A DNA stretch of 64,000 nucleotides from a virus (Duplodnaviria; Caudoviricetes). Position numbers and translations under genes: made by a program. This document shows, in pieces, positions 33,016 to 53,891 of this stretch. The first letter of the stretch is position 1. Every line of letters begins with the position of its first letter. The DNA is taken from positions 1 through 64,000 of IMG/VR virus record IMGVR_UViG_3300028887_000080; one strand, 5' to 3'. The notes under the pieces are model-generated. The model saw nothing but the letters and a program-made list of their open reading frames with translations. It was not told where the DNA came from and made no database searches.

Positions 33016-34998
33016 ATGAAAAAAGACATTATTATTAAATTGTTGAACACTCCGTCAAAGGACGGCGGTATGCGAAACCTGACAGAAAAAGGCATTATGA
33101 ATAAATTTCCTGATTTATATGAATTTCTTATCGGATTTGATTTTCCAAAAGATTTTACAATAAAGCAAATGATTTATCATTACATCAATGATGATGTTGA
33201 ATGTAATATTGGTGTTTGTGACTGCGGAAAAAGGTGTAAGTTTTTAAGCATAAATGAAGGATATTGCAAACATTGTTCTGTAAAATGTTCAAGAAATTCA
33301 AAGGATGTCAATGAAAAGAGAAAGAACACCTGTTTGAAAAAGTATGGTGTGGACAGTCCTTCAAAATCAGATGTTGTAAAAGAAAAGAGGAAACAAACAT
33401 TTATAGACAAGTTTGGTGTTGAACACCCTATGCTGTTGGATGAAATTAAAGAAAAGATAAAGAATACCAATATGGAACGATATGGGGTTGAATGTGTTTT
33501 TCAATCAAATGAAATAAAAGAAAAGATAAAAGAAACAAACATAGAAAAATATGGTTGGGAGAATCCTATGTGTTCCGATGAAGTAAAAGAAAAGATAAAA
33601 GAAACCAATATGGAAAAATATGGTGTTTCACACCCTTTGCAATCGGATGAAATAAAAGAAAAGATAAAAGAAACCAATATGGAACGATATGGGGTTGAAA
33701 ATGTCGGTCAAACAGATGTAGTGCGTGAGAAGGCAAAGAAAACAAACATAGAGAAATATGGTGTGGAATGCCATTTTCAATCGGACGAAATCAAAGAAAA
33801 GATAAAGAATACCAATATGGAACGATATGGGGTGAAAAATGTTTTTCAATCGGATGAAATAAAAGAAAAGATAAAAGAAACCAATATGGAACGATATGGG
33901 GTGGAAAAACCAGCACAATGTGATTCTGTAAAGGCGAAGGCAATACAGACAACAGTTGAACGATATGGCGTGAAATATCCTATGCAGTCCGATAGAATAA
34001 AAGAAAAGGCAATGGAGACAAACGCCAAACGATATGGCGTGAAATATATAACACAATCAAATGAAATAAAAGAAAAGATAAAAAATACAAATCTTGAAAA
34101 ATATGGAGTGGAATGGTTTTGTCAAACAAGCGCGGCAAGGAATTATTCAAATGATTCAAAACCGAATTTAAGTTTTGCCGCCAGTCTTGATAAGTGCAAT
34201 ATAGTATATGACCGTGAGTATCCAATATCCCATTATTCCTATGATTTTATCGTTGGAAATTATTTGGTTGAAATAAACCCCACAATAACACACAACAGTC
34301 ATATAAGTATATTCAATGGAAAGGTAAAAAACAGTTCGTACCATTCGGATAAATCACAAACTGCTTTGAATAAAGGTTATTTCTGCATACACGTTTGGGA
34401 TTGGGATGACCAAGACAAAATTGTTAATATGCTTAAACCAAAAAATGTAGTATATGCAAGAAATCTTGAAATTCGTGACGTTTCCGTAGAATCGGCAAGT
34501 TTGTTTTTGAACACATATCATTTACAAAACACTTGTAAGGGTCAACGTGTAATATATGGTTTATATATGGACGATATGTTGGTTGAACTTATGTCATTCG
34601 GAAATCCGAGGTATAACAGGAACTATGAATGGGAACTTTTAAGACTTTGCACGCATAAAGACTACACTGTGGTTGGTGGTGCGGAAAGACTTTTCAAGCA
34701 TTTTATATTGACAAATAAACCGAAATCAATCATCAGTTATTGTGACAATTCAAAGTTCAGCGGACACGTCTATGAAAAACTTGGTTTCAAAATCCTTCGT
34801 TCATCCAAACCGACTTGTCATTGGTATAACTTGAAAACAAAACAGCACATTACAGATAATTTATTGAGACAACGTGGGTTTGACCAACTGTTCGGCACAA
34901 ACTATGGAAAGGGTACTTCAAATAAAGAACTTATGCTTGAATATGGGTTTCTTCCTGTATATGACTGCGGGCAGACAAGTTTTGTTTGGAATTTATGA
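33016..34998 (+). CDS. Hef-like homing endonuclease: Zn finger + 23-aa repeats + DUF559/PD-(D/E)xK + GNAT-like domain
   Basis: ~12 KIKETNMERYGVE repeats; YSYDF..LVEINP..H, IHVWDWD; WELLRLC, ISYCDNS..GHVYEKLGF, YDCG; AT-rich. Confidence 0.75.
   Translation: MKKDIIIKLLNTPSKDGGMRNLTEKGIMNKFPDLYEFLIGFDFPKDFTIKQMIYHYINDDVECNIGVCDCGKRCKFLSINEGYCKHCSVKCSRNSKDVNEKRKNTCLKKYGVDSPSKSDVVKEKRKQTFIDKFGVEHPMLLDEIKEKIKNTNMERYGVECVFQSNEIKEKIKETNIEKYGWENPMCSDEVKEKIKETNMEKYGVSHPLQSDEIKEKIKETNMERYGVENVGQTDVVREKAKKTNIEKYGVECHFQSDEIKEKIKNTNMERYGVKNVFQSDEIKEKIKETNMERYGVEKPAQCDSVKAKAIQTTVERYGVKYPMQSDRIKEKAMETNAKRYGVKYITQSNEIKEKIKNTNLEKYGVEWFCQTSAARNYSNDSKPNLSFAASLDKCNIVYDREYPISHYSYDFIVGNYLVEINPTITHNSHISIFNGKVKNSSYHSDKSQTALNKGYFCIHVWDWDDQDKIVNMLKPKNVVYARNLEIRDVSVESASLFLNTYHLQNTCKGQRVIYGLYMDDMLVELMSFGNPRYNRNYEWELLRLCTHKDYTVVGGAERLFKHFILTNKPKSIISYCDNSKFSGHVYEKLGFKILRSSKPTCHWYNLKTKQHITDNLLRQRGFDQLFGTNYGKGTSNKELMLEYGFLPVYDCGQTSFVWNL
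33300..34130 (+). repeat. 69-bp imperfect coding tandem repeat
   Basis: recurrent GAAATAAAAGAAAAGATAAAAGAAACCAATATGGAACGATATGG. Confidence 0.85.
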
Positions 34999-37846: not shown

Positions 37847-37966
37847 ATTTTTAGGAACTCATTGAAACCAATTCATAACAACAACGGCAAATCTCGATTG
37901 AAAAAAAATCTATAAATAAAGTGATGTGACATTTTTTTTGTATTTTTGCAAAGTGAAAATCAGACT

Positions 37967-39910
37967 ATGAACAGAGATGAATTGAAACGATTGTTGCTGC
38001 TTCCGAAATCGGAAGGCGGTATAAACCAAATCCAAGAAAGCGGGTTTGCGAAAATGTTTCCTGAAGAATATGCCGAATTGTGCGGCATTGACTTTCCGAA
38101 CGGGTTTACATTCAGGCAGAAACTTTATCATTGGTTGAACGGTGATTTTGGTCTTGCGCTCGGATTCTGCAAGAAATGCGGAAAGCGTTGTTCATTCAAG
38201 AACCTGTCAAAAGGTTATTTTGATTATTGCAGCAATTCCTGTGCGCAGAGTTCCGATGAGAACATAAAAAAAGTGAAAGCGACCAAACTTGAAAGGTACG
38301 GTGAAGAGAACTACAACAACAGGGAAAAATCAAAACGTACTTGTATGGAGGCGTATGGTGTTGACAATCCGTTGAAATCCGGCGATGTTGTGGAAAAGGG
38401 AAAACGCACCAAACTTGAAAGATACGGCGATGAGAATTACAACAACAGAAAAAAGGCGTCGGACACAAAACTTGAAAAGTATGGTGATTCGGCATATAAC
38501 AACCAACAGAAATACAAACAAACCTGCATTGAGAAATACGGAGTGGAAAACGTGTTCCAACTTCAGTCGGTGAGTGAGAAAATACACGACACTATGATGG
38601 ACAAATATGGTGTCGGGCATTCGATGCAGTCTCCTGTTTTTCAAGAAAAGGCGAAAGACACGAACCGCAAGCGATACGGGAGCGACTATGTTATGCAGAA
38701 TGATGAGGTGAAGCATAAGTCCCGTGACACCAATATTGAGAAGTACGGTCACCCTTGCAGTTTGCAGAATGACGAAGTTAAGGAAAAGGCGAGGAACACT
38801 ATGATTGAAAAGTATGGTGTCGAGCACAATTCGCAGACGAAGGAGTTTTGGGAGAAATACAAAGACACTTGTGTGGAGAAATACGGCGTGGAGCACCCTT
38901 CTATGAGCGAAGACGTCAAGGACAAGATGAAGCATACTTGTATTGAACGCTACGGCGTGGAGTATGCGTCGCAGAGCGATGAGTTCAAGAAAAGGGTGAT
39001 GGAGACGAACCGCAGGCTGTACGGGGTTGATTGGTATTGTATGACTTCGGAGTGCAGGTTGCACGGAAACGACAGCAAGGTGAACCTGAATTTCGCCAAG
39101 ACGCTTGAGGATTCAACAATACCGTTCGAGCGTGAATTTCCGTTGGAAGGGTATTCTTACGATTTCAAGGTCGGAAATGTGCTTATAGAACTCAACCCGA
39201 CCATAACCCACAATTCAGCGGTCAACATATATGGTGGGAACCCGAAAGACGAGAACTATCACTTTGCGAAATCGAACACTGCGGAATTGCACGGACTCTC
39301 CTGCATTCATATTTGGGATTGGGACGACAAGGCGAAGATAGTCCGTATGCTGAAACCCAAAACAATTCTGTATGCAAGGAAGTTGGTTCTGCGTGAAGTC
39401 GACGCCGTTTCCTGCGACCGTTTTTTGAACGAGCACCATTTGCAGAATACTTGCAAGGGGCAGTCTGTCTGCTTGGGTCTGTATATGGACGATGTGTTGG
39501 TTGAGGTTATGACATTCGGCAAACCGAGATACAACAAGAATTACGAATGGGAACTTTTGAGGCTTTGCACACATTGCGATTACAAGATTGTAGGCGGAGC
39601 GGAACGATTGTACAGTCATTTTGTGAAGTCATACATCCCGAAATCAATCATAAGTTATTGCGACAACAGCAAGTTCAACGGCGGAGTGTACAAAAGACTC
39701 GGAATGTCGTTGCTGCGCCTGTCCAAACCGAGCAAACATTGGTGGAACGGAAAACGGCATATCACGGACAACTTTTTGAGGCAGCGCGGGTTTGACCAAC
39801 TGTTCGGCGCCAACTACGGAAAGGGGACGGACAACAACGAACTTATGCTTGAACACGGTTTTTTGCCAATCTATGATTGTGGACAGATGACTTTTGTTGT
39901 TGAATTTTAA
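37967..39910 (+). CDS. Hef-like homing endonuclease paralog 2
   Basis: same architecture and near-identical C-terminus to 33016 ORF. Confidence 0.75.
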   Translation: MNRDELKRLLLLPKSEGGINQIQESGFAKMFPEEYAELCGIDFPNGFTFRQKLYHWLNGDFGLALGFCKKCGKRCSFKNLSKGYFDYCSNSCAQSSDENIKKVKATKLERYGEENYNNREKSKRTCMEAYGVDNPLKSGDVVEKGKRTKLERYGDENYNNRKKASDTKLEKYGDSAYNNQQKYKQTCIEKYGVENVFQLQSVSEKIHDTMMDKYGVGHSMQSPVFQEKAKDTNRKRYGSDYVMQNDEVKHKSRDTNIEKYGHPCSLQNDEVKEKARNTMIEKYGVEHNSQTKEFWEKYKDTCVEKYGVEHPSMSEDVKDKMKHTCIERYGVEYASQSDEFKKRVMETNRRLYGVDWYCMTSECRLHGNDSKVNLNFAKTLEDSTIPFEREFPLEGYSYDFKVGNVLIELNPTITHNSAVNIYGGNPKDENYHFAKSNTAELHGLSCIHIWDWDDKAKIVRMLKPKTILYARKLVLREVDAVSCDRFLNEHHLQNTCKGQSVCLGLYMDDVLVEVMTFGKPRYNKNYEWELLRLCTHCDYKIVGGAERLYSHFVKSYIPKSIISYCDNSKFNGGVYKRLGMSLLRLSKPSKHWWNGKRHITDNFLRQRGFDQLFGANYGKGTDNNELMLEHGFLPIYDCGQMTFVVEF

Positions 39911-39921
39911 TTCTGTTGTTT

Positions 39922-41655
39922 ATGATGAATGCGGAATGTGACACTACTATGGAAGAACTCAAAAATTTTCTCAATGCCAAACCCGTGTACTTGCAGGAAA
40001 GCAAATTTGCAGTGAAGTTTCCCGATGAGTATGTCACATTGTGCAGTTGGAAGTTTCCCGACGGGTTCACATTCCAGCAGAAACTTTATCATTATGTCAA
40101 TGGCGACAATATATTCAGACTTGGATTGTGTCCCACTTGTGGAAAGCGTTGCAGGTTCAAGTCATTTGGCAGAGGTTACTTTGAGTATTGCAGCAAATCC
40201 TGTATCTATACAAAGGAGCGTTCCGAAAAGTGCAAGGAGACAAAACTTGAACGATATGGTGACTCCAACTACAATAACATAGAAAAGGCGAAGCGTACTT
40301 GTATTGACAGATATGGTGTGGAGAACGTCTCGCTTGTTGAGAGCATATCGGAGCAGAAATCGGAAACAAGACGTAACAGGACATCGGATGAGAAAGCGGC
40401 GACAAGGGAGAAAATAGCACGGACGTGGGCGGCAAAGACAGATGATGACGTAAACAGGCATATAGAGAGTATCCGACAGGGAAAACTTGAAAAGTATGGG
40501 GACGTCAATTTTTCAAATCCGCAAAAGACAAAGGATACTAAACTTGAAAGATATGGGACACCAACCTATGTGAACCCTGAAAAAATGGTCGCGACAAAGC
40601 GTGCGAAGGCATTGGATGCAGACCCGAACATAATCAGTTTCAATACTGACGGCAGCGTGGTCAGGAGATGTGATAATCCATCCTGTGACAGGTGTGATGA
40701 AAAGTGCTATACCACATTCACGAGACTTCATTATGACAGAATCAGACTTGGGTGTATCACCTGCACCAAACTAAATCCCATTGACAGGCACACGAGCGGA
40801 GGTGAGAATGAGTTGTATGAATATGTCAGGGGGGTGTACGGAGGAACCATAGTGAAGAATGACAGGGGTGTCCTCGGAGGTCAGGAACTTGACATCTATC
40901 TTCCTGACAAGAAACTCGCATTTGAGTTCAACGGGTTGTATTGGCACAGTGATTTATACAAGGACAAGAACTATCACTTTGAGAAATCAAAATCCTGTAT
41001 GGAGAAAGGTGTGAGACTTGTCCATATATGGGAGGATGATTGGCGTTACAGGAGGGATATTGTGGAGAACCTCATATCAGGAATATTGGGAAAGCACAAT
41101 ACTTACATAAACGCAAGGAAATGTTCGGTGGGAAAGGTGGATGCAAAAACAGCGCGAGTGTTTTGTGATAAATACCATATACAGGGTTATGTGAACTGTG
41201 CTGTCAGATATGGTATTTTCTATAATGGAGAACTTGTGATGGTCTCGTTATTTGGAAAGCGCAGGCGGATTTGCGGAGGTGTCCCGAAAGAGAATGTTTG
41301 GGAACTTTACAGGATGTGTTCGGTGTTCGGAACGAGAGTTCGCGGAGGTGCGAGCAGATTGCTTGTGCATTTCATCAATGATGTCAGACCGAACTCCATA
41401 GTAACTTTTGCCGACTCCTGTATTTCTGACGGTGGAGTCTATGAGAAAATGGGTTTTGTGAAGGACGGTGTTGTGCCGCCATCCTACTATTGGGTTGTTG
41501 GCATTGAACGTGTGCCGAGATATAGGTTCCAAAAGTCAATGCTTGAGGAGTGCAAGGACAACTCTGACCTTACGGAGGATGAGGTGATGCGGTCAAGAGG
41601 ATGCCTCAAAATATGGGATGCGGGAAAAGTGAGATACATCATTGATATATCGTAA
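39922..41655 (+). CDS. Hef-like homing endonuclease paralog 3
   Basis: T..ERYG repeats, SGGE, ELDIYLPDKKLAFEFNGLYWHS, HIWEDDW, WELYRMC, VTFAD, IWDAG. Confidence 0.8.
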   Translation: MMNAECDTTMEELKNFLNAKPVYLQESKFAVKFPDEYVTLCSWKFPDGFTFQQKLYHYVNGDNIFRLGLCPTCGKRCRFKSFGRGYFEYCSKSCIYTKERSEKCKETKLERYGDSNYNNIEKAKRTCIDRYGVENVSLVESISEQKSETRRNRTSDEKAATREKIARTWAAKTDDDVNRHIESIRQGKLEKYGDVNFSNPQKTKDTKLERYGTPTYVNPEKMVATKRAKALDADPNIISFNTDGSVVRRCDNPSCDRCDEKCYTTFTRLHYDRIRLGCITCTKLNPIDRHTSGGENELYEYVRGVYGGTIVKNDRGVLGGQELDIYLPDKKLAFEFNGLYWHSDLYKDKNYHFEKSKSCMEKGVRLVHIWEDDWRYRRDIVENLISGILGKHNTYINARKCSVGKVDAKTARVFCDKYHIQGYVNCAVRYGIFYNGELVMVSLFGKRRRICGGVPKENVWELYRMCSVFGTRVRGGASRLLVHFINDVRPNSIVTFADSCISDGGVYEKMGFVKDGVVPPSYYWVVGIERVPRYRFQKSMLEECKDNSDLTEDEVMRSRGCLKIWDAGKVRYIIDIS

Positions 41656-41704
41656 AAAATACATTGTTTTTTGTTATATTTAATAATAACAAAATTTATT
41701 GAAT

Positions 41705-46130: not shown

Positions 46131-46643
46131 CTATACCCAAGTTATCTTTTTGTATTCTCCGTCTTCGTAGTAACCGAACGAAAAGCACATCGGGGTTAGG
46201 AAAACTGGTTCTGTGATGATGTTCTTTTTGTATTTGTCCGCATACCCCTTGTTCATATATGCGATTGTGATATGGGGTTTGTAGGTCGTGAACTCCGTGT
46301 GGAGGGTGTAGTTCGCCTTTATCGCGGAGTTTGTCGTATGAAGCGCTTGGCATACCACGCCGCATTTCAGGACGTCGTAGTTGTCGTTGCTGAACACGCT
46401 CACGTCTGAAAGCATTGTCTTGTAGTCGTTGAGAGGAAGCAGGTGCTTTTTCAACTGTTCAAGGTTGACGTCGTTGTCGAGACAGGGAGCGAGCGTGACG
46501 TGCGTCTCGGTTTCAAGTCCATAGACGAACGGTGAATCTGGGTCGCTCGGTTTGTACAGTTCATAGTCCTTGATGCTGTTTTGGATTCCCTTTATGTAGT
46601 CAGGTGTTTGGAAGTCCACCATCAAAAATGCGTATTTGTCCAT
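46131..46643 (-). CDS. 2H phosphoesterase (Acb1/T4 57B- or LigT-like)
   Basis: two HxT motifs: THVTL and YKPHITIAY. Confidence 0.8.
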   Translation of the reverse strand: MDKYAFLMVDFQTPDYIKGIQNSIKDYELYKPSDPDSPFVYGLETETHVTLAPCLDNDVNLEQLKKHLLPLNDYKTMLSDVSVFSNDNYDVLKCGVVCQALHTTNSAIKANYTLHTEFTTYKPHITIAYMNKGYADKYKKNIITEPVFLTPMCFSFGYYEDGEYKKITWV

Positions 46644-46695
46644 ATCTGTTTTTTTTATTATTGTCGGTTTGTATTTATAAACCGCTGCTTGTTAG

Positions 46696-46768
<73 letters not shown>

Positions 46769-50318: not shown

Positions 50319-50397
50319 TAGGGGAGGTGGGACTCGAACCCACATACACCAATTACAGAATTAACGACTGTATATAAGACAGGACTGATACACCCCT
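50319..50397 (-). ncRNA. D-armless tRNA-Ile(UAU)-like RNA with long variable arm
   Basis: AGGGGTG/CTCCCCT, CTGT-CTTATAT-ACAG, GTGGG-TTCGAGT-CCCAC; only 8 nt where D arm should be. Confidence 0.65.
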
Positions 50398-50565: not shown

Positions 50566-50639
50566 ACAAGGCGGTTTTTTTAGCGAGTACAAATTAACGG
50601 TTTGTTGCTTGAAAATAGTGGTTTGCGGAATCCGCCTTT
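50566..50639 (-). ncRNA. CAGCAA-family RNA, Asn(GUU)-like loop
   Basis: AAAGGCGG-ATTCCGCAAAC..ACAAA-CCGTTAA-TTTGT..CCGCCTTGT. Confidence 0.7.
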
Positions 50640-50678
50640 ATATGTTCAGTATTATGGAAAAAGAGAAAATTCAAAAAA

Positions 50679-50749
50679 ACAAGGCAGGGGTTGTTAGCGA
50701 GTACAAATTAAAAGTTTGTTGCTTGGATAGGTTTGCTGCACCTGCCTTT
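50679..50749 (-). ncRNA. CAGCAA-family RNA, Lys(UUU) loop
   Basis: AAAGGCAGG-TGCAGCAAAC..ACAAA-CTTTTAA-TTTGT..CCTGCCTTGT. Confidence 0.72.
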
Positions 50750-50788
50750 ATTATTCAGTATTATGGAAAGAGAAGATTCAAAAAAAAA

Positions 50789-50855
50789 ACAAGGGAGATT
50801 TGTTGCGTTTCAAAGTTACAGTTTGATGCCTACAATGTTTGCTGAACCTCCCTTT
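50789..50855 (-). ncRNA. CAGCAA-family RNA, Tyr(GUA) loop
   Basis: AAAGGGAGGTT-CAGCAAAC..TCAAA-CTGTAAC-TTTGA..AATCTCCCTTGT. Confidence 0.72.
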
Positions 50856-50859
50856 AGAT

Positions 50860-50927
50860 ACAAGGTGATTTTTTTGCTTGGTTGAATTTGGATTTCACTT
50901 TGCAATGCGTTTGCTGCAATCACCTTT
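50860..50927 (-). ncRNA. CAGCAA-family RNA, Trp(CCA) loop
   Basis: AAAGGTGATT-GCAGCAAAC..TGAA-ATCCAAA-TTCA..AATCACCTTGT. Confidence 0.7.
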
Positions 50928-51363: not shown

Positions 51364-51427
51364 ACAAGAGGCGTGATGAAATGACTTATCCCAAAAGTTT
51401 TTCTTGTTTTTTGCCGAATGCCTCTTT
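51364..51427 (-). ncRNA. CAGCAA-family RNA, Pro(GGG)-like loop
   Basis: AAAGAGGC-ATTCGGCAA..ACTT-TTGGGAT-AAGT..GCCTCTTGT. Confidence 0.65.
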
Positions 51428-51432
51428 TTTTG

Positions 51433-51546
51433 CCGCGGAGATTGGAGTCGAACCAATGTCAGGAGTTCCCAATAGCGAAAATTGCTGATAGGTTCTTTGA
51501 ACAAGAATCATTTGCTACTCCCGTTCTGCCGTTAAACTACTCCGCG
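51433..51546 (-). ncRNA. tRNA-Pro(UGG)-like RNA with ~43-nt CAGCAA module inserted in anticodon arm
   Basis: CGCGGAG/CTCCGCG, D and T arms intact; GGAGT-[insert]-ATTGGGA-ACTCC. Confidence 0.7.
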
Positions 51547-52042: not shown

Positions 52043-52198
52043 TGGGCAGGGAAGGATTTGAACCTCCGAACCCGAATGGGAGCGGATTGGCAATGTGGGA
52101 AATTACGAATTTCCGAAACTTCATTATTCACATTGCGGTTTAACGTGTAACCTTCACGTAGTACAGTCCGCCGCGTTTAACCACTTCGCTACCTGCCC
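52043..52198 (-). tRNA. tRNA-Tyr(GUA) with 73-nt insertion/intron (52089-52161)
   Basis: GCGGA-CTGTA-[73 nt]-AA-TCCGC; all other arms canonical. Confidence 0.85.
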
Positions 52199-52210
52199 TT
52201 ATAGAATTTG

Positions 52211-52281
52211 TGGACATTACGGGAATCGAACCCGCTTTCACGCCTCCCGTTGCAGTGGGACACGCTACTGCCGTTATGCCC
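52211..52281 (-). pseudogene. atypical tRNA-like RNA (8-nt loop ACUGCAAC, Cys/Ala-like)
   Basis: GGGCAT/ATGTCC, T arm GCGGG-TTCGATT-CCCGT, shortened D arm. Confidence 0.5.
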
Positions 52282-52292
52282 TTGTTGTTATG

Positions 52293-52364
52293 TGTCACGG
52301 ATGAGACTCGAACTCACAATCCCCTGATTAAAAGTCAGGTGCATCGCCATTATGCTACCGTGGC
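52293..52364 (-). tRNA. tRNA-Lys(UUU)
   Basis: CCTGA-CTTTTAA-TCAGG; C2:A71 mismatch; 5' end overlapped by endonuclease ORF. Confidence 0.88.
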
Positions 52365-53189
52365 ATTTTTTATTTTTTGTATTATATTTTTAATGAATCG
52401 TTCTTTACATTCTTTTGGCATTTTTTTATACCGAGACCATCTTATTCTAAATAAACACGTCCATCCATTTTTTTGTAATACTTCAGTTCGTTTTTTGTCG
52501 TGTTTAACAATACGCTTGTCCAAATAATGTTGTTCCCCATCAACTTCAAAATATGTTTTTGTTATTGGAAATGCAAAATCCAAAAAATACCCAAATTGAT
52601 AATAATTTTGTTCATATTCAATATGTTCATCATTCAAAATTTGCTTAAAATACTTTTCACAATAACTATCACCGTGTGAATGATGATTTAATACATAAGG
52701 AACTTTATTCGGGTGCTTTTTCAAATACTTTTTTCTAATATCAGAAAGGTGCTGTTTTTCTTGTTCAGTATGCTTTATTCCTTTTTGTGGACTTTTTAAT
52801 TCACCGTTTTCATAACGGAGTTTAAGTGAAATTGCTGCTTGTTTAACACGCTCATCTGTCTCTTTTGTTAAACCTTTGTTCCACGGACGCTTACCCATCA
52901 TACCATTACGATATACTCTATTTTTGTTTTGTGGACACTTACATTCGTGTGCTTTAAGTGATTTTACACTATAACATTGTTTTCCACAGTATTTACAAAC
53001 AAGACTTTCATCTTTGTCGTAATGATAATTTTCATTACTATGTTTTTTTGAATATACCGCATAACCACAAACGTGATTTTCCAAAGGTTTTCTATTTGGA
53101 TTCAACTTACAAGTTCTTTCGTGAATACCCAATGCACAAGAACGTTTTAACATTTTGTTACAATACCTACAAATATACATCATTTCCAA
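52350..53189 (-). CDS. free-standing homing endonuclease (Zn fingers, NUMOD3-like motifs, DUF559/Vsr-like nuclease)
   Basis: CRYC..HERTC, PWNKGLTKE, KGIKHTEQEK, YFLDFAF..EVDGEQH..HDKKR..GW..RIRW; AT-rich. Confidence 0.8.
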   Translation of the reverse strand: MEMMYICRYCNKMLKRSCALGIHERTCKLNPNRKPLENHVCGYAVYSKKHSNENYHYDKDESLVCKYCGKQCYSVKSLKAHECKCPQNKNRVYRNGMMGKRPWNKGLTKETDERVKQAAISLKLRYENGELKSPQKGIKHTEQEKQHLSDIRKKYLKKHPNKVPYVLNHHSHGDSYCEKYFKQILNDEHIEYEQNYYQFGYFLDFAFPITKTYFEVDGEQHYLDKRIVKHDKKRTEVLQKNGWTCLFRIRWSRYKKMPKECKERFIKNIIQKIKNATVA

Positions 53190-53315: not shown

Positions 53316-53386
53316 ACAAGGTGGCATAACCATTAACCTTAAATTAAATAAATACTATGGAAACTGTTTTGCTGAAAACCACCTTT
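53316..53386 (-). ncRNA. CAGCAA-family RNA (weak UAA-type loop)
   Basis: AAAGGTGGT-TTTCAGCAAAAC..CCAT/ATGG..GCCACCTTGT. Confidence 0.62.
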
Positions 53387-53836: not shown

Positions 53837-53891
53837 ACAAGATACTTAAAATTTCCTATAATTTTTTTAATAGATTGCTGAATGTATCTTT
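53837..53891 (-). ncRNA. CAGCAA-family RNA (short, no anticodon loop)
   Basis: AAAGATAC-ATTCAGCAA-TCTAT..ATAGG..GTATCTTGT. Confidence 0.62.

What the first reader, a model, noticed from the sequence alone, without database searches (positions are those of the whole stretch)
51433..51546. tRNA-Pro-like RNA with a circularly permuted CAGCAA module in its anticodon arm
Seen: intact acceptor, D and T arms, but ~43 nt sit between GGAGT and ATTGGGA-ACTCC. The insert reads AGCAAA-TGA-TTCTTGT-TC-AAAGAACC-TATCAGCAA-TTTTC-GCT, i.e. the family's 3' half (..CTTGT) precedes its 5' half (AAAG..CAGCAA), so the module is closed by a loop and the tRNA body takes the place of the apical arm. Known: bacterial YrlA Y RNAs combine a Ro-binding stem at the anticodon-arm position with a tRNA-like domain. 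Inference: the CAGCAA internal loop is a portable protein-binding module, supporting a Y-RNA-like or tRNA-mimic RNP.
Basis: partly seen in the sequence, partly recalled or inferred. Interest (0 to 1): 0.85.

Follow-up and report, generated by a model that had tools for sequence, protein, structure and literature searches.

The report
tRNA-Pro look-alike carrying a Ro60-type handle
A large gut phage encodes a complete proline-tRNA look-alike whose anticodon arm carries a conserved hairpin-plus-CAGCAA "handle". In other phages that handle lies beside the gene for a Ro60-shaped RNA-binding protein, so this is most likely a tRNA-shaped partner RNA of that protein and not a working or decaying tRNA.

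Summary
Window 51433-51546 (minus strand) is a full tRNA cloverleaf (Rfam tRNA, 44.3 bits) with anticodon UGG. A 43-nt insert sits between the 5' strand of the anticodon stem and the anticodon loop.

The insert is the window's CAGCAA "handle" in circularly permuted order. A model built from 18 such modules of other phages, with ours left out, hits the 64-kb window only here (28.9 bits, E 2e-5).

About 19 further tRNA-shaped RNAs in jumbo-phage contigs carry the same module in the same strand of the anticodon arm. In all 12 assessable cases, ours included, an uninterrupted tRNA with the same anticodon lies in the same record.

Canonical TROVE is absent, and the Rfam YrlA model does not match. 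A DUF2828/vWA protein is encoded in 10 of 11 complete module-bearing records, against 2 of 41 random viral contigs. Its predicted fold matches Ro60 structures. Handle RNAs flank its gene in cultured Mycobacterium, Listeria and Bacillus phages.

This 39%-complete record shows no such gene. Splicing of the insert is not excluded, and binding is inferred, not shown.

My reading is a new topological variant of the Y-RNA/Ro60 kind. This scan has noted the handle system before on other DNA. I found it in neither Rfam nor the searchable papers.

The parts
51433..51546 (-). Whole tRNA-Pro(UGG)-shaped RNA gene, 114 nt. No CCA is encoded.
   Evidence: Rfam RF00005, 44.3 bits, model 1-71. Sequence read.
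51517..51546 (-). 5' body: acceptor 5' strand (51546-51540), D arm (51537-51523) and anticodon-stem 5' strand GGAGU (51521-51517).
   Evidence: D stem 4 bp, anticodon stem 5/5 bp.
51508..51516 (-). Linker L1, AGCAAAUGA. Its AGC/AAA can pair with the UUU/GCU of L2 to close the insert.
   Evidence: Read from the sequence. A parallel 3-bp closing helix followed by 7 free nt is seen in G003:224951. Not supported by covariation.
51493..51507 (-). Handle hairpin UUCUU-GUUCA-AAGAA. This is the family's terminal stem closed by a loop.
   Evidence: Pair probabilities 0.59-0.89. The hairpin is 91.6% paired in 24 distinct modules, and all 7 pairs show double changes.
51482..51492 (-). CCUAU spacer plus the invariant CAGCAA (51487-51482).
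   Evidence: CAGCAA is invariant in alignments A5 and A6. The AAG-to-CAGCAA spacing is 7 nt, as in the stand-alone copies.
51474..51481 (-). Linker L2, UUUUCGCU. A U-rich stretch follows CAGCAA in most family members.
51433..51473 (-). 3' body: anticodon-loop letters AUUGGGA (51473-51467), stem ACUCC (51466-51462), variable UGAC, T arm (51457-51441), acceptor 3' strand (51440-51434) and discriminator G (51433).
51364..51429 (-). Stand-alone handle RNA (CGGCAA variant) that starts 3 nt after the tRNA-shaped gene.
50566..50927 (-). Four tandem stand-alone CAGCAA/CCGCAA handle RNAs: 50927-50860, 50855-50789, 50749-50679 and 50639-50566.
53316..53386 (-). Stand-alone handle RNA.
53837..53891 (-). 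Stand-alone handle RNA, short form.
46695..46768 (-). Uninterrupted tRNA-Pro(UGG) of the same array. It makes the handle-bearing copy redundant for decoding.
   Evidence: It is not a recent duplicate of the handle-bearing copy.

Best explanation
The gene makes a tRNA-Pro-shaped, non-decoding small RNA of the Y-RNA type.

Shown:
- It has a full cloverleaf with the marks of tRNA-Pro (C1:G72, anticodon-loop letters A-U-UGG-G-A).
- A branch leaves the 5' side of the anticodon arm. It consists of a 5-7 bp hairpin whose base is AAG/CUU, then 5 nt (the first two continue the stem in most relatives), then CAGCAA, then a U-rich linker.
- This branch is the window's stand-alone 'handle' with its two ends joined by a loop.

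Inferred:
- The transcript is cut out of the tRNA operon by RNase P and RNase Z and receives CCA like its neighbours.
- The handle docks on a phage Ro60-shaped ring protein (DUF2828 + vWA). That protein is encoded in nearly all complete relatives, and presumably in the missing 60% of this genome.
- The exposed tRNA body then acts as bait or tether for a tRNA-binding enzyme, either a host anticodon nuclease or a tRNA repair or processing enzyme. This parallels how YrlA/Y RNAs tether partners to Ro60.
- With 43 nt branching from the anticodon arm, the RNA is unlikely to fit the ribosome. The ordinary tRNA-Pro(UGG) at 46695-46768 does the decoding.
For: 1. Module identity. The leave-one-out model gives 28.9 bits, E 2e-5, and is the only significant hit in the window. 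The 7-nt AAG-to-CAGCAA spacing is the same in both topologies.

2. Conservation. The pattern scan found 28 stretches, nearly all on contigs above 100 kb. About 19 further full tRNA bodies (Pro, Gly, Asp, Gln, Ile and irregular ones) carry the module in the 5' strand of the anticodon arm. The hairpin covaries, with 0 of 500 shuffles reaching the observed value.

3. Redundancy. All 12 assessable handle-bearing tRNAs, ours included, have an uninterrupted tRNA with the same anticodon in the same record.

4. Some members (L132, G003:224856) have no canonical anticodon loop, so they cannot yield a normal tRNA.

5. Protein link. DUF2828 is present in 17 of 23 module-bearing records and in 10 of 11 complete ones, against 2 of 41 random viral contigs (p about 1e-8).

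6. Fold. The AlphaFold model of the G003 protein (pLDDT 72.6) has Ro60/TROVE structures as its 13 best PDB matches, at full length, E 9e-8 to 3e-4. The DxSxS MIDAS motif is invariant.

7. Physical adjacency. Handle RNAs lie within 40-500 nt of the DUF2828 gene in Mycobacterium phage Rumpelstiltskin, Listeria phage WIL-1, Bacillus phage Tsamsa, G012 and a randomly sampled contig, G063. In G009 one lies about 900 nt away.

8. One Rumpelstiltskin RNA encloses a YrlA-like T/acceptor/D core inside the handle. M. smegmatis YrlA is itself cut by RNase P and receives CCA (PMC4201824).
Against: - No DUF2828 or TROVE gene lies in the 124 kb held of this phage. The record is only 39% complete.
- No binding, expression or end-mapping data exist.
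- Deleting the insert restores a flawless tRNA here and in at least eight relatives. Introns leave exactly this signature.
- In this copy the insert sits at 30/31 to 32/33, next to the loop, and not at 28/29 as in most relatives. The anticodon letters would therefore form a 7-nt bulge.
- A thermodynamic fold instead pairs CCUA with UGGG and AGC (of CAGCAA) with GCU. No orthologue was found to decide between these folds.
- The permuted form was not found in six cultured DUF2828 phages.
Confidence: 0.6

Rival explanations
1. The 43 nt are an intron of a new, protein-dependent kind. The hairpin plus CAGCAA recruits an enzyme (possibly the Ro60-like particle together with a ligase) that removes the insert, giving a working tRNA-Pro only in infected cells.
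For: - Removing the insert gives a canonical 5-bp stem and 7-nt loop tRNA here and in at least eight relatives, with sensible anticodons and identity marks.
- Short unexplained tRNA inserts are on record for Lak megaphages (PMC6784885).
- The tRNA-Tyr of this same array also has an insert.
- RtcB lies 1.3 kb from the DUF2828 gene in Listeria phage WIL-1.
Against: - At 43-56 nt the inserts are far too short to self-splice.
- By inspection there is no bulge-helix-bulge motif. Both junctions lie on one strand of the stem.
- No tRNA-intron endonuclease and no RtcB were found in G000, G003, G011, G016 or G020.
- The insertion point wanders (about 27/28, 28/29, 29/30, 31/32, and inside the loop). 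Linker lengths vary (9-19 nt and 7-13 nt), so no fixed ruler exists.
- All 12 assessable cases are redundant with an intact tRNA of the same anticodon.
- Some members lack an anticodon loop.
- The same module occurs in RNAs with no exons at all.
Confidence: 0.15
2. The handle works without a Ro60-like protein. It might be a processing or stability signal of the tRNA operon. Alternatively the RNA could act alone as a decoy that soaks up host anticodon nucleases or other tRNA-directed defences.
For: - No partner gene lies in this record.
- The handle RNAs sit inside tRNA operons.
- Several stand-alone copies show anticodon-like 7-nt loops such as CUUUUAA.
Against: - Both the statistical and the physical link to DUF2828 genes are strong in other phages.
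- The invariant single-stranded CAGCAA at a fixed distance from the stem looks like a protein-recognition site.
- A decoy role remains compatible with the main explanation.
Confidence: 0.15
3. It is a dead tRNA gene, a spare tRNA-Pro copy disrupted by insertion of a mobile copy of the handle element.
For: - It is redundant with tRNA-Pro 46695-46768.
- This particular arrangement is a singleton in the collections searched.
Against: - All four stems are perfect and the T loop is canonical.
- The same design is kept in many phages whose tail sheaths are only about 59% identical to this phage's.
- Orthologous pairs (L136b/L147, L134/L136a) keep both the insert and the body, with compensatory T-stem changes.
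Confidence: 0.05

Closest known systems
YrlA Y RNAs with Ro60/Rsr (Rfam RF02553; Chen et al. 2014, PMC4201824)
   Same: A tRNA-like body (T arm, D arm, acceptor stem) is joined at the anticodon-arm position to a stem-plus-motif module thought to dock a ring-shaped Ro60-type protein. M. smegmatis YrlA is even cut by RNase P and receives CCA, giving open acceptor ends as here.
   Different: - The motif is CAGCAA, not GNCGAAN0-1G.
- The RNA ends lie in the acceptor stem and the handle is closed by a loop, which is the reverse of YrlA.
- A real anticodon loop sequence is kept.
- The likely partner is a DUF2828/DUF7788 protein, not a Pfam TROVE protein.
- The Rfam model does not match the locus.
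CAGCAA-handle RNAs beside DUF2828 'Ro-like RNA-binding protein' genes of cultured phages (Mycobacterium phage Rumpelstiltskin gp54, Listeria phage WIL-1, Bacillus phage Tsamsa). I found these in no paper or Rfam family.
   Same: The handle geometry is the same: a 7-bp stem, CNGCAA starting 10 nt from the start of the stem, and GU after the 3' strand. One Rumpelstiltskin RNA also carries a tRNA-like core.
   Different: In those RNAs the ends lie in the handle, and the tRNA-like part, where present, is closed. Here the order is circularly permuted and the body is a complete, normally ordered tRNA.
Dictyostelid Class I RNAs (Rfam RF01414; Kjellin et al. 2021, PMC7919456)
   Same: They have a short covarying stem joining the two ends, start with AAG, end with CUGU, and carry the motif CCUUACAGCAA. 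CAGCAA begins 10 nt after the start of the stem (Rfam consensus).
   Different: - They are eukaryotic.
- They have no tRNA body.
- No Ro60-like partner has been reported for them; Rnp1A is the one direct binder named in the paper.
- The Rfam model gives no hit in this window.
'Enigmatic' tRNA introns of Lak megaphages (Devoto et al. 2019, PMC6784885)
   Same: These are short, conserved inserts in the tRNA genes of huge gut phages, with no known way of removal.
   Different: They were reported at or beside the anticodon by tRNAscan. The held text of their Table S6 contains no CAGCAA, and no handle or protein link was described.

Membership tests
tRNA (RF00005) | Cloverleaf reaching the Rfam gathering score | tested here: met
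   44.3 bits against a gathering score of 29.
tRNA (RF00005) | 7-nt anticodon loop closed directly by the anticodon stem | tested here: not met
   50 nt lie between GGAGU and ACUCC. ARAGORN does not call the gene.
YrlA (RF02553) | Match to the covariance model at its gathering score of 69 bits | tested here: not met
   No YrlA hit at the locus even at E up to 10.
YrlA (RF02553) | GNCGAAN0-1G motif in the Ro60-binding stem (PMC4201824) | tested here: not met
   The motif is absent from the 114 nt. CAGCAA stands in its place.
YrlA (RF02553) | Encoded within about 4 kb of a TROVE-domain Ro60 gene, on the same strand | tested here: not met
   No TROVE match in the record or in 24 related or module-bearing records.
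YrlA (RF02553) | tRNA-like domain with T arm, D arm and acceptor stem | tested here: met
CAGCAA-handle RNAs (undescribed family, permuted form) | Hairpin with an AAG/CUU base, CAGCAA 7 nt after AAG, and a U-rich 3' linker | tested here: met
   The leave-one-out model gives 28.9 bits, E 2e-5. See also alignments A5 and A6.
CAGCAA-handle RNAs (undescribed family, permuted form) | DUF2828/vWA Ro60-like gene in the same genome | tested here: inconclusive
   None in the 124 kb held, which is 39% complete. Present in 10 of 11 complete module-bearing records.
Dictyostelid Class I RNA (RF01414) | Match to the Rfam model at its gathering score of 41.5 bits | tested here: not met
   No hit in the window. 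18.9 bits on a mycobacteriophage handle RNA.
Archaeal/eukaryal tRNA intron | Bulge-helix-bulge at the two splice sites, and a splicing endonuclease | tested here: not met
   No such motif can be drawn, because both junctions lie on the 5' strand. PF01974 gives only a 12.6-bit stray hit, and no RtcB was found.
Group I intron in a bacterial or phage tRNA | Catalytic core of about 200 nt or more | tested here: not met
   The insert is 43 nt, and no intron family appeared in the Rfam search.
Ro60/TROVE proteins (for the presumed partner) | Pfam TROVE domain | tested here: not met
   0 of 25 records. The proteins score as DUF2828 + DUF7788 only. A profile search against PDB sequences gave no Ro60 hit.
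Ro60/TROVE proteins (for the presumed partner) | Ring of helical repeats plus a vWA domain with a MIDAS motif (fold) | tested here: met
   The 13 best Foldseek PDB matches are all Ro60/TROVE at full length. DxSxS is invariant. The model is of moderate quality (pLDDT 72.6).

The most novel reading that the evidence does not exclude
The handle-bearing tRNAs are conditional tRNAs. On this reading the Ro60-like particle, docked on the handle, directs removal of the branch, or repair of the adjacent anticodon loop. That would be a protein-guided tRNA splicing or repair pathway with no counterpart in bacteria, and it could also explain the 'enigmatic' inserts in megaphage tRNAs. More broadly, the same handle geometry in Dictyostelid Class I RNAs would mean one ancient RNA-protein particle shared by phages and eukaryotes.
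Probability: 0.12. Interest if true: 0.9.

Novelty: new variant of a known kind. Interest (0 to 1): 0.66.

Why it matters
Ro60 with Y RNAs is a classic RNA-surveillance particle, and what its tRNA-like modules are for is still open. This RNA is a complete, normally ordered tRNA with a docking handle grafted into its anticodon arm. It is the mirror image of YrlA, which argues that the tRNA shape itself is the cargo.

The presumed partner family, DUF2828, is unstudied yet present in hundreds of cultured phages, including Felix O1-like phages and phages of Listeria, Staphylococcus, Mycobacterium and Vibrio. The idea can therefore be tested at the bench now.

There is also a practical point. Such genes are missed by ARAGORN, or could be taken for intron-containing tRNAs, which distorts counts of phage tRNA repertoires.

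Tried and rejected
- A loose pattern (TATCAGCAA...ATTGGGA) in IMG/VR gave 119 chance matches, none in a tRNA.
- The 776-aa neighbouring protein found no relatives.
- A megablast of the array against GenBank phages found only a tRNA-Ser fragment.
- Pfam TROVE was absent from all 25 records.
- A profile of the DUF2828 proteins against PDB sequences gave no Ro60 hit.
- The single-sequence AlphaFold model was useless, with pLDDT 40.
- Two searches for orthologues with the insert next to a Pro anticodon loop found none. IMG/VR gave 0 hits, and the 5 metagenome hits were all chance.
- The permuted module was not found in six cultured DUF2828 phages. The one hit, in ValKK3, lies in a coding sequence.
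- The held text of the Lak phage intron table contains no CAGCAA.
- No supplement of Chen et al. 2014 is held, so I could not see which 22 phages they counted.
- The literal Dictyostelid motif is in no held paper. I took it from the Rfam consensus instead.
- The D-stem constraint in my script was offset by one base. I use only its fold of the anticodon arm alone.
- I considered and rejected a ribozyme (no Rfam match, and the conserved part is a simple hairpin plus six bases), a terminator, and a CRISPR-like repeat.

Full report
**What is there**

The window belongs to a 124-kb virus record that is 39% complete. It comes from a myovirus-like large phage with a tail sheath, a DNA polymerase and an SbcC-like nuclease. 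From about 46.7 to 54.6 kb the minus strand carries an array of some 30 tRNA genes.

The stretch 51433-51546, read on the minus strand, is a full cloverleaf:
- acceptor stem CGCGGAG/CUCCGCG
- D arm
- anticodon stem GGAGU/ACUCC
- 4-nt variable region
- T arm with UUCGACU
- discriminator G

The Rfam tRNA model covers it end to end at 44.3 bits, with 50 nt standing where 7 are expected. ARAGORN does not call it.

Those 50 nt are a 43-nt insert followed by AUUGGGA, a textbook tRNA-Pro anticodon loop (U33, UGG, G37). Repeated letters at the junctions mean the insert can be placed at 30/31, 31/32 or 32/33.

**The 'family' and the permutation**

Seven minus-strand elements in the array share the frame A-AAG-[4-7 further bp]-NN-C(A/G/C)GCAA ... 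[stem']-CUU-GU. One of them lies 3 nt after this gene. Their stems differ in sequence yet always pair.

In the insert the order is reversed: UUCUU-GU, then UC, then A-AAGAA, then CCUAU, then CAGCAA. The family's 3' end and 5' end are thus joined by a 5-nt loop. The distance from AAG to CAGCAA is 7 nt, as in six of the seven stand-alone copies.

I tested this without circularity. A covariance model built from 18 permuted modules of other phages, with ours excluded, was run over the whole window with filters off. It gave one significant hit, at 51474-51524, with 28.9 bits and E 2e-5. The runner-up scored 14 bits.

**It is a conserved kind of gene**

The closest complete relative, G003, is 413 kb and its tail sheath is 59% identical. 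It has several tRNA-length hits of 116-120 nt, and these carry the same module.

A scan of IMG/VR for AAGAA-N5-CAGCAA-N25-55-GGTTCRANTCC returned 28 stretches, where I estimate (not computed) about one by chance. Nearly all lie on contigs of 100-413 kb. Together with model searches this gives about 19 further complete tRNA bodies with the module in the 5' strand of the anticodon arm.

In eight of them, deleting 45-56 nt between positions 28 and 29 restores a canonical tRNA (Gly UCC, Asp GUC, Pro UGG, Ile GAU, Gln UUG). In two others (L176, L180) the branch point reads as 29/30. In L142 it is about 27/28. In G003:224951 it lies inside the loop. In ours it is next to the loop.

The hairpin covaries across 24 distinct modules. 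Cells are 91.6% paired, every one of the 7 pairs shows a double change (for example CUU/AAG to CUC/GAG), and 0 of 500 shuffles reach the observed value. The alignment was fitted to the model, so this leans somewhat in its favour.

**Decoding tRNA, intron, or something else?**

Four results argue against a simple interrupted tRNA.

1. All 12 handle-bearing tRNAs that could be assessed, ours included, have an uninterrupted gene with the same anticodon in the same record. Ours is not a recent copy of tRNA-Pro 46695-46768.

2. Some members (L132, G003:224856) have no usable anticodon loop.

3. The insert cannot splice itself, being only 43 nt with no intron family match in Rfam. Both junctions lie on one strand, so no bulge-helix-bulge can be drawn. 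No tRNA-intron endonuclease or RtcB is encoded in G000, G003, G011, G016 or G020. The one 12.6-bit stray hit falls in an ORF with no Pfam match.

4. The branch point and both linkers vary in length, which speaks against cutting at fixed distances from the handle.

Splicing by an unknown route remains possible, because the exons are flawless. I give it 0.15.

**The likely partner**

Pfam TROVE is absent from this record and from 24 related or module-bearing records.

A note from this scan named DUF2828, and I tested that lead myself.
- PF11443 is found in 17 of 23 module-bearing records and in 10 of 11 that are at least 90% complete. The one exception, G015, also lacks a model hit and is probably a chance pattern match.
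- Among 41 random viral contigs fetched by an unrelated chance pattern, it is found in 2. Fisher's test gives p about 1e-8.
- One of those two control contigs, G063, turned out to have two handle RNAs directly upstream of its DUF2828 gene.
- An AlphaFold model of the G003 protein, made with an 8-sequence alignment, reached pLDDT 72.6 and pTM 0.67. Its 13 best PDB matches are all Ro60/TROVE structures aligned at full length: Thermus phage phiLo Ro60, frog and human Ro60, and Deinococcus Rsr, at E 9e-8 to 3e-4. The vWA MIDAS motif DxSxS is invariant.
- By sequence the proteins score only as DUF2828 + DUF7788.

Homologues occur in 711 GenBank phage records, where some are annotated 'Ro-like RNA binding protein'.
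- In Mycobacterium phage Rumpelstiltskin, three handle RNAs follow gp54, starting 40 nt after its stop codon. The middle one encloses a T arm, closed acceptor stem and D arm that match the core of the YrlA model at 21 bits, below threshold.
- In Listeria phage WIL-1, three handle RNAs precede the gene, and RtcB lies 1.3 kb downstream.
- In Bacillus phage Tsamsa, two handle RNAs sit between a tRNA array and the gene.
- In a Felix O1-like phage, the gene abuts the tRNA array.

**How it most likely works**

Shown: the RNA has a tRNA body plus a permuted handle. The handle family is linked to a Ro60-shaped protein.

Inferred:
- The RNA is released from the operon by RNase P and RNase Z and receives CCA.
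- The handle docks on the ring protein.
- The tRNA body serves as bait or tether for a tRNA-binding enzyme.

This mirrors YrlA, whose ends lie in the Ro60-binding stem and whose acceptor stem is closed. In M. smegmatis, YrlA is even opened by RNase P and given CCA (PMC4201824). Jumbo phages are known to carry RNA-repair sets that include TROVE proteins with tRNA-like partners (PMC7824862).

**Open points specific to this copy**
- No DUF2828 gene lies in the 124 kb held.
- The local fold is undecided. One option closes the insert with AGC-AAA/UUU-GCU and leaves AUUGGGA as a 7-nt bulge. G003:224951 shows a parallel design, with UGG/CCA followed by 7 free nt. The other option is the thermodynamic optimum, which pairs CCUA with UGGG and AGC with GCU, hiding both the anticodon and part of CAGCAA.
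- No orthologue with this arrangement was found to settle the fold.

**Comparison with what is known**
- It is not a member of Rfam YrlA. There is no model hit, no GNCGAA motif and no TROVE neighbour.
- It is not a member of Rfam Dicty_Class_I_RNA either, as there is no hit. The geometry is nonetheless the same as in the Rfam consensus GaUcuCCUUACAGCAA...GagAuCUG, with CAGCAA starting 10 nt after the start of the stem. The paper reports an AAG start, a CUGU end and a covarying end stem (PMC7919456).
- DUF2828 appears in no paper on RNA that I could search.
- Lak megaphage tRNA 'introns' are a related puzzle, but the held table of them contains no CAGCAA.
- Notes of this scan show that the handle system has been reported before on other DNA, including a handle-bearing tRNA in a 424-kb phage. 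This locus is therefore a further instance, with an unusual branch point.

**Verdict**

This is a new topological variant of the Y-RNA/Ro60 kind. I put 0.6 on the partner-RNA reading.

Noticed in passing
window 52043-52198 (-): tRNA-Tyr(GUA) gene with an insert of about 73 nt right after the anticodon (Rfam tRNA 47.1 bits). It has a CCGCAA but not the handle spacing, so it looks like a different kind of insert.
   Followed up: no
window 52208-52281 (-) and 52210-52592: A tRNA-like sequence with a good acceptor stem and T arm but an odd D/anticodon region. ARAGORN's 'tmRNA' call across it and tRNA-Lys is almost certainly false (Rfam tmRNA only 16.4 bits).
   Followed up: no
window 46131-46643 (-): A 170-aa ORF at the 3' end of the tRNA array, on the same strand. 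It gives sub-threshold matches to the 2H phosphoesterase / 2'-5' RNA ligase superfamily (23 bits) and to anti-CBASS Acb1 (20 bits). It could be an RNA-end-healing or an anti-defence enzyme.
   Followed up: partly
window 52350-53189 (-): An AT-rich 279-aa ORF inside the tRNA array with a DUF559 / restriction-endonuclease-like C-terminus. It is probably a homing-type endonuclease.
   Followed up: partly
window 33016-34998 (+) and 37946-39910 (+): Two paralogous ORFs of about 655 aa that match phage homing/HNH endonuclease families, set among structural genes.
   Followed up: no
L203 3935-4194 (Mycobacterium phage Rumpelstiltskin, NC_023732 about 41419-41678): Three tandem CAGCAA-handle RNAs start 40 nt after the stop codon of gp54 (DUF2828, 'RNA-binding protein'). 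The middle one, 125 nt long, holds a YrlA-like tRNA core. None is annotated in the record.
   Followed up: partly
L207 1165-1428 (Listeria phage WIL-1) and L208 935-1386 (Bacillus phage Tsamsa): Unannotated handle RNAs (three and two) lie directly upstream of the DUF2828 genes. In WIL-1 an RtcB ligase gene lies 1.3 kb downstream, and in Tsamsa a tRNA array lies just upstream.
   Followed up: partly
L129 1689-1811: A handle-bearing tRNA-Pro-like RNA whose anticodon hairpin has an 8-nt loop (UUUUGGGU).
   Followed up: no
L142 4135-4262: A handle-bearing class II tRNA body whose local hairpin shows GUUCAAA (anticodon-like UCA). Two alternative 5' strands (GCGG upstream of the insert and CGG just before the loop) compete for one 3' strand.
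   Followed up: no
L132 620-1504 (G003, about 225.1-226 kb): A radical-SAM gene sits between handle-bearing tRNA-like genes that lie outside the main tRNA array, about 13 kb from the DUF2828 gene of G003.
   Followed up: no
L140 7898-8041 and L148 11663-11794: RNAs in which the non-permuted handle (AAAGAAGCAU...AUGCUUCUUGU) encloses a D arm, a GCA anticodon arm and a T arm. Here the handle takes the place of the acceptor stem.
   Followed up: no
window 50319-50397 (-): A borderline tRNA hit (29.1 bits, gathering score 29) with an irregular body.
   Followed up: no
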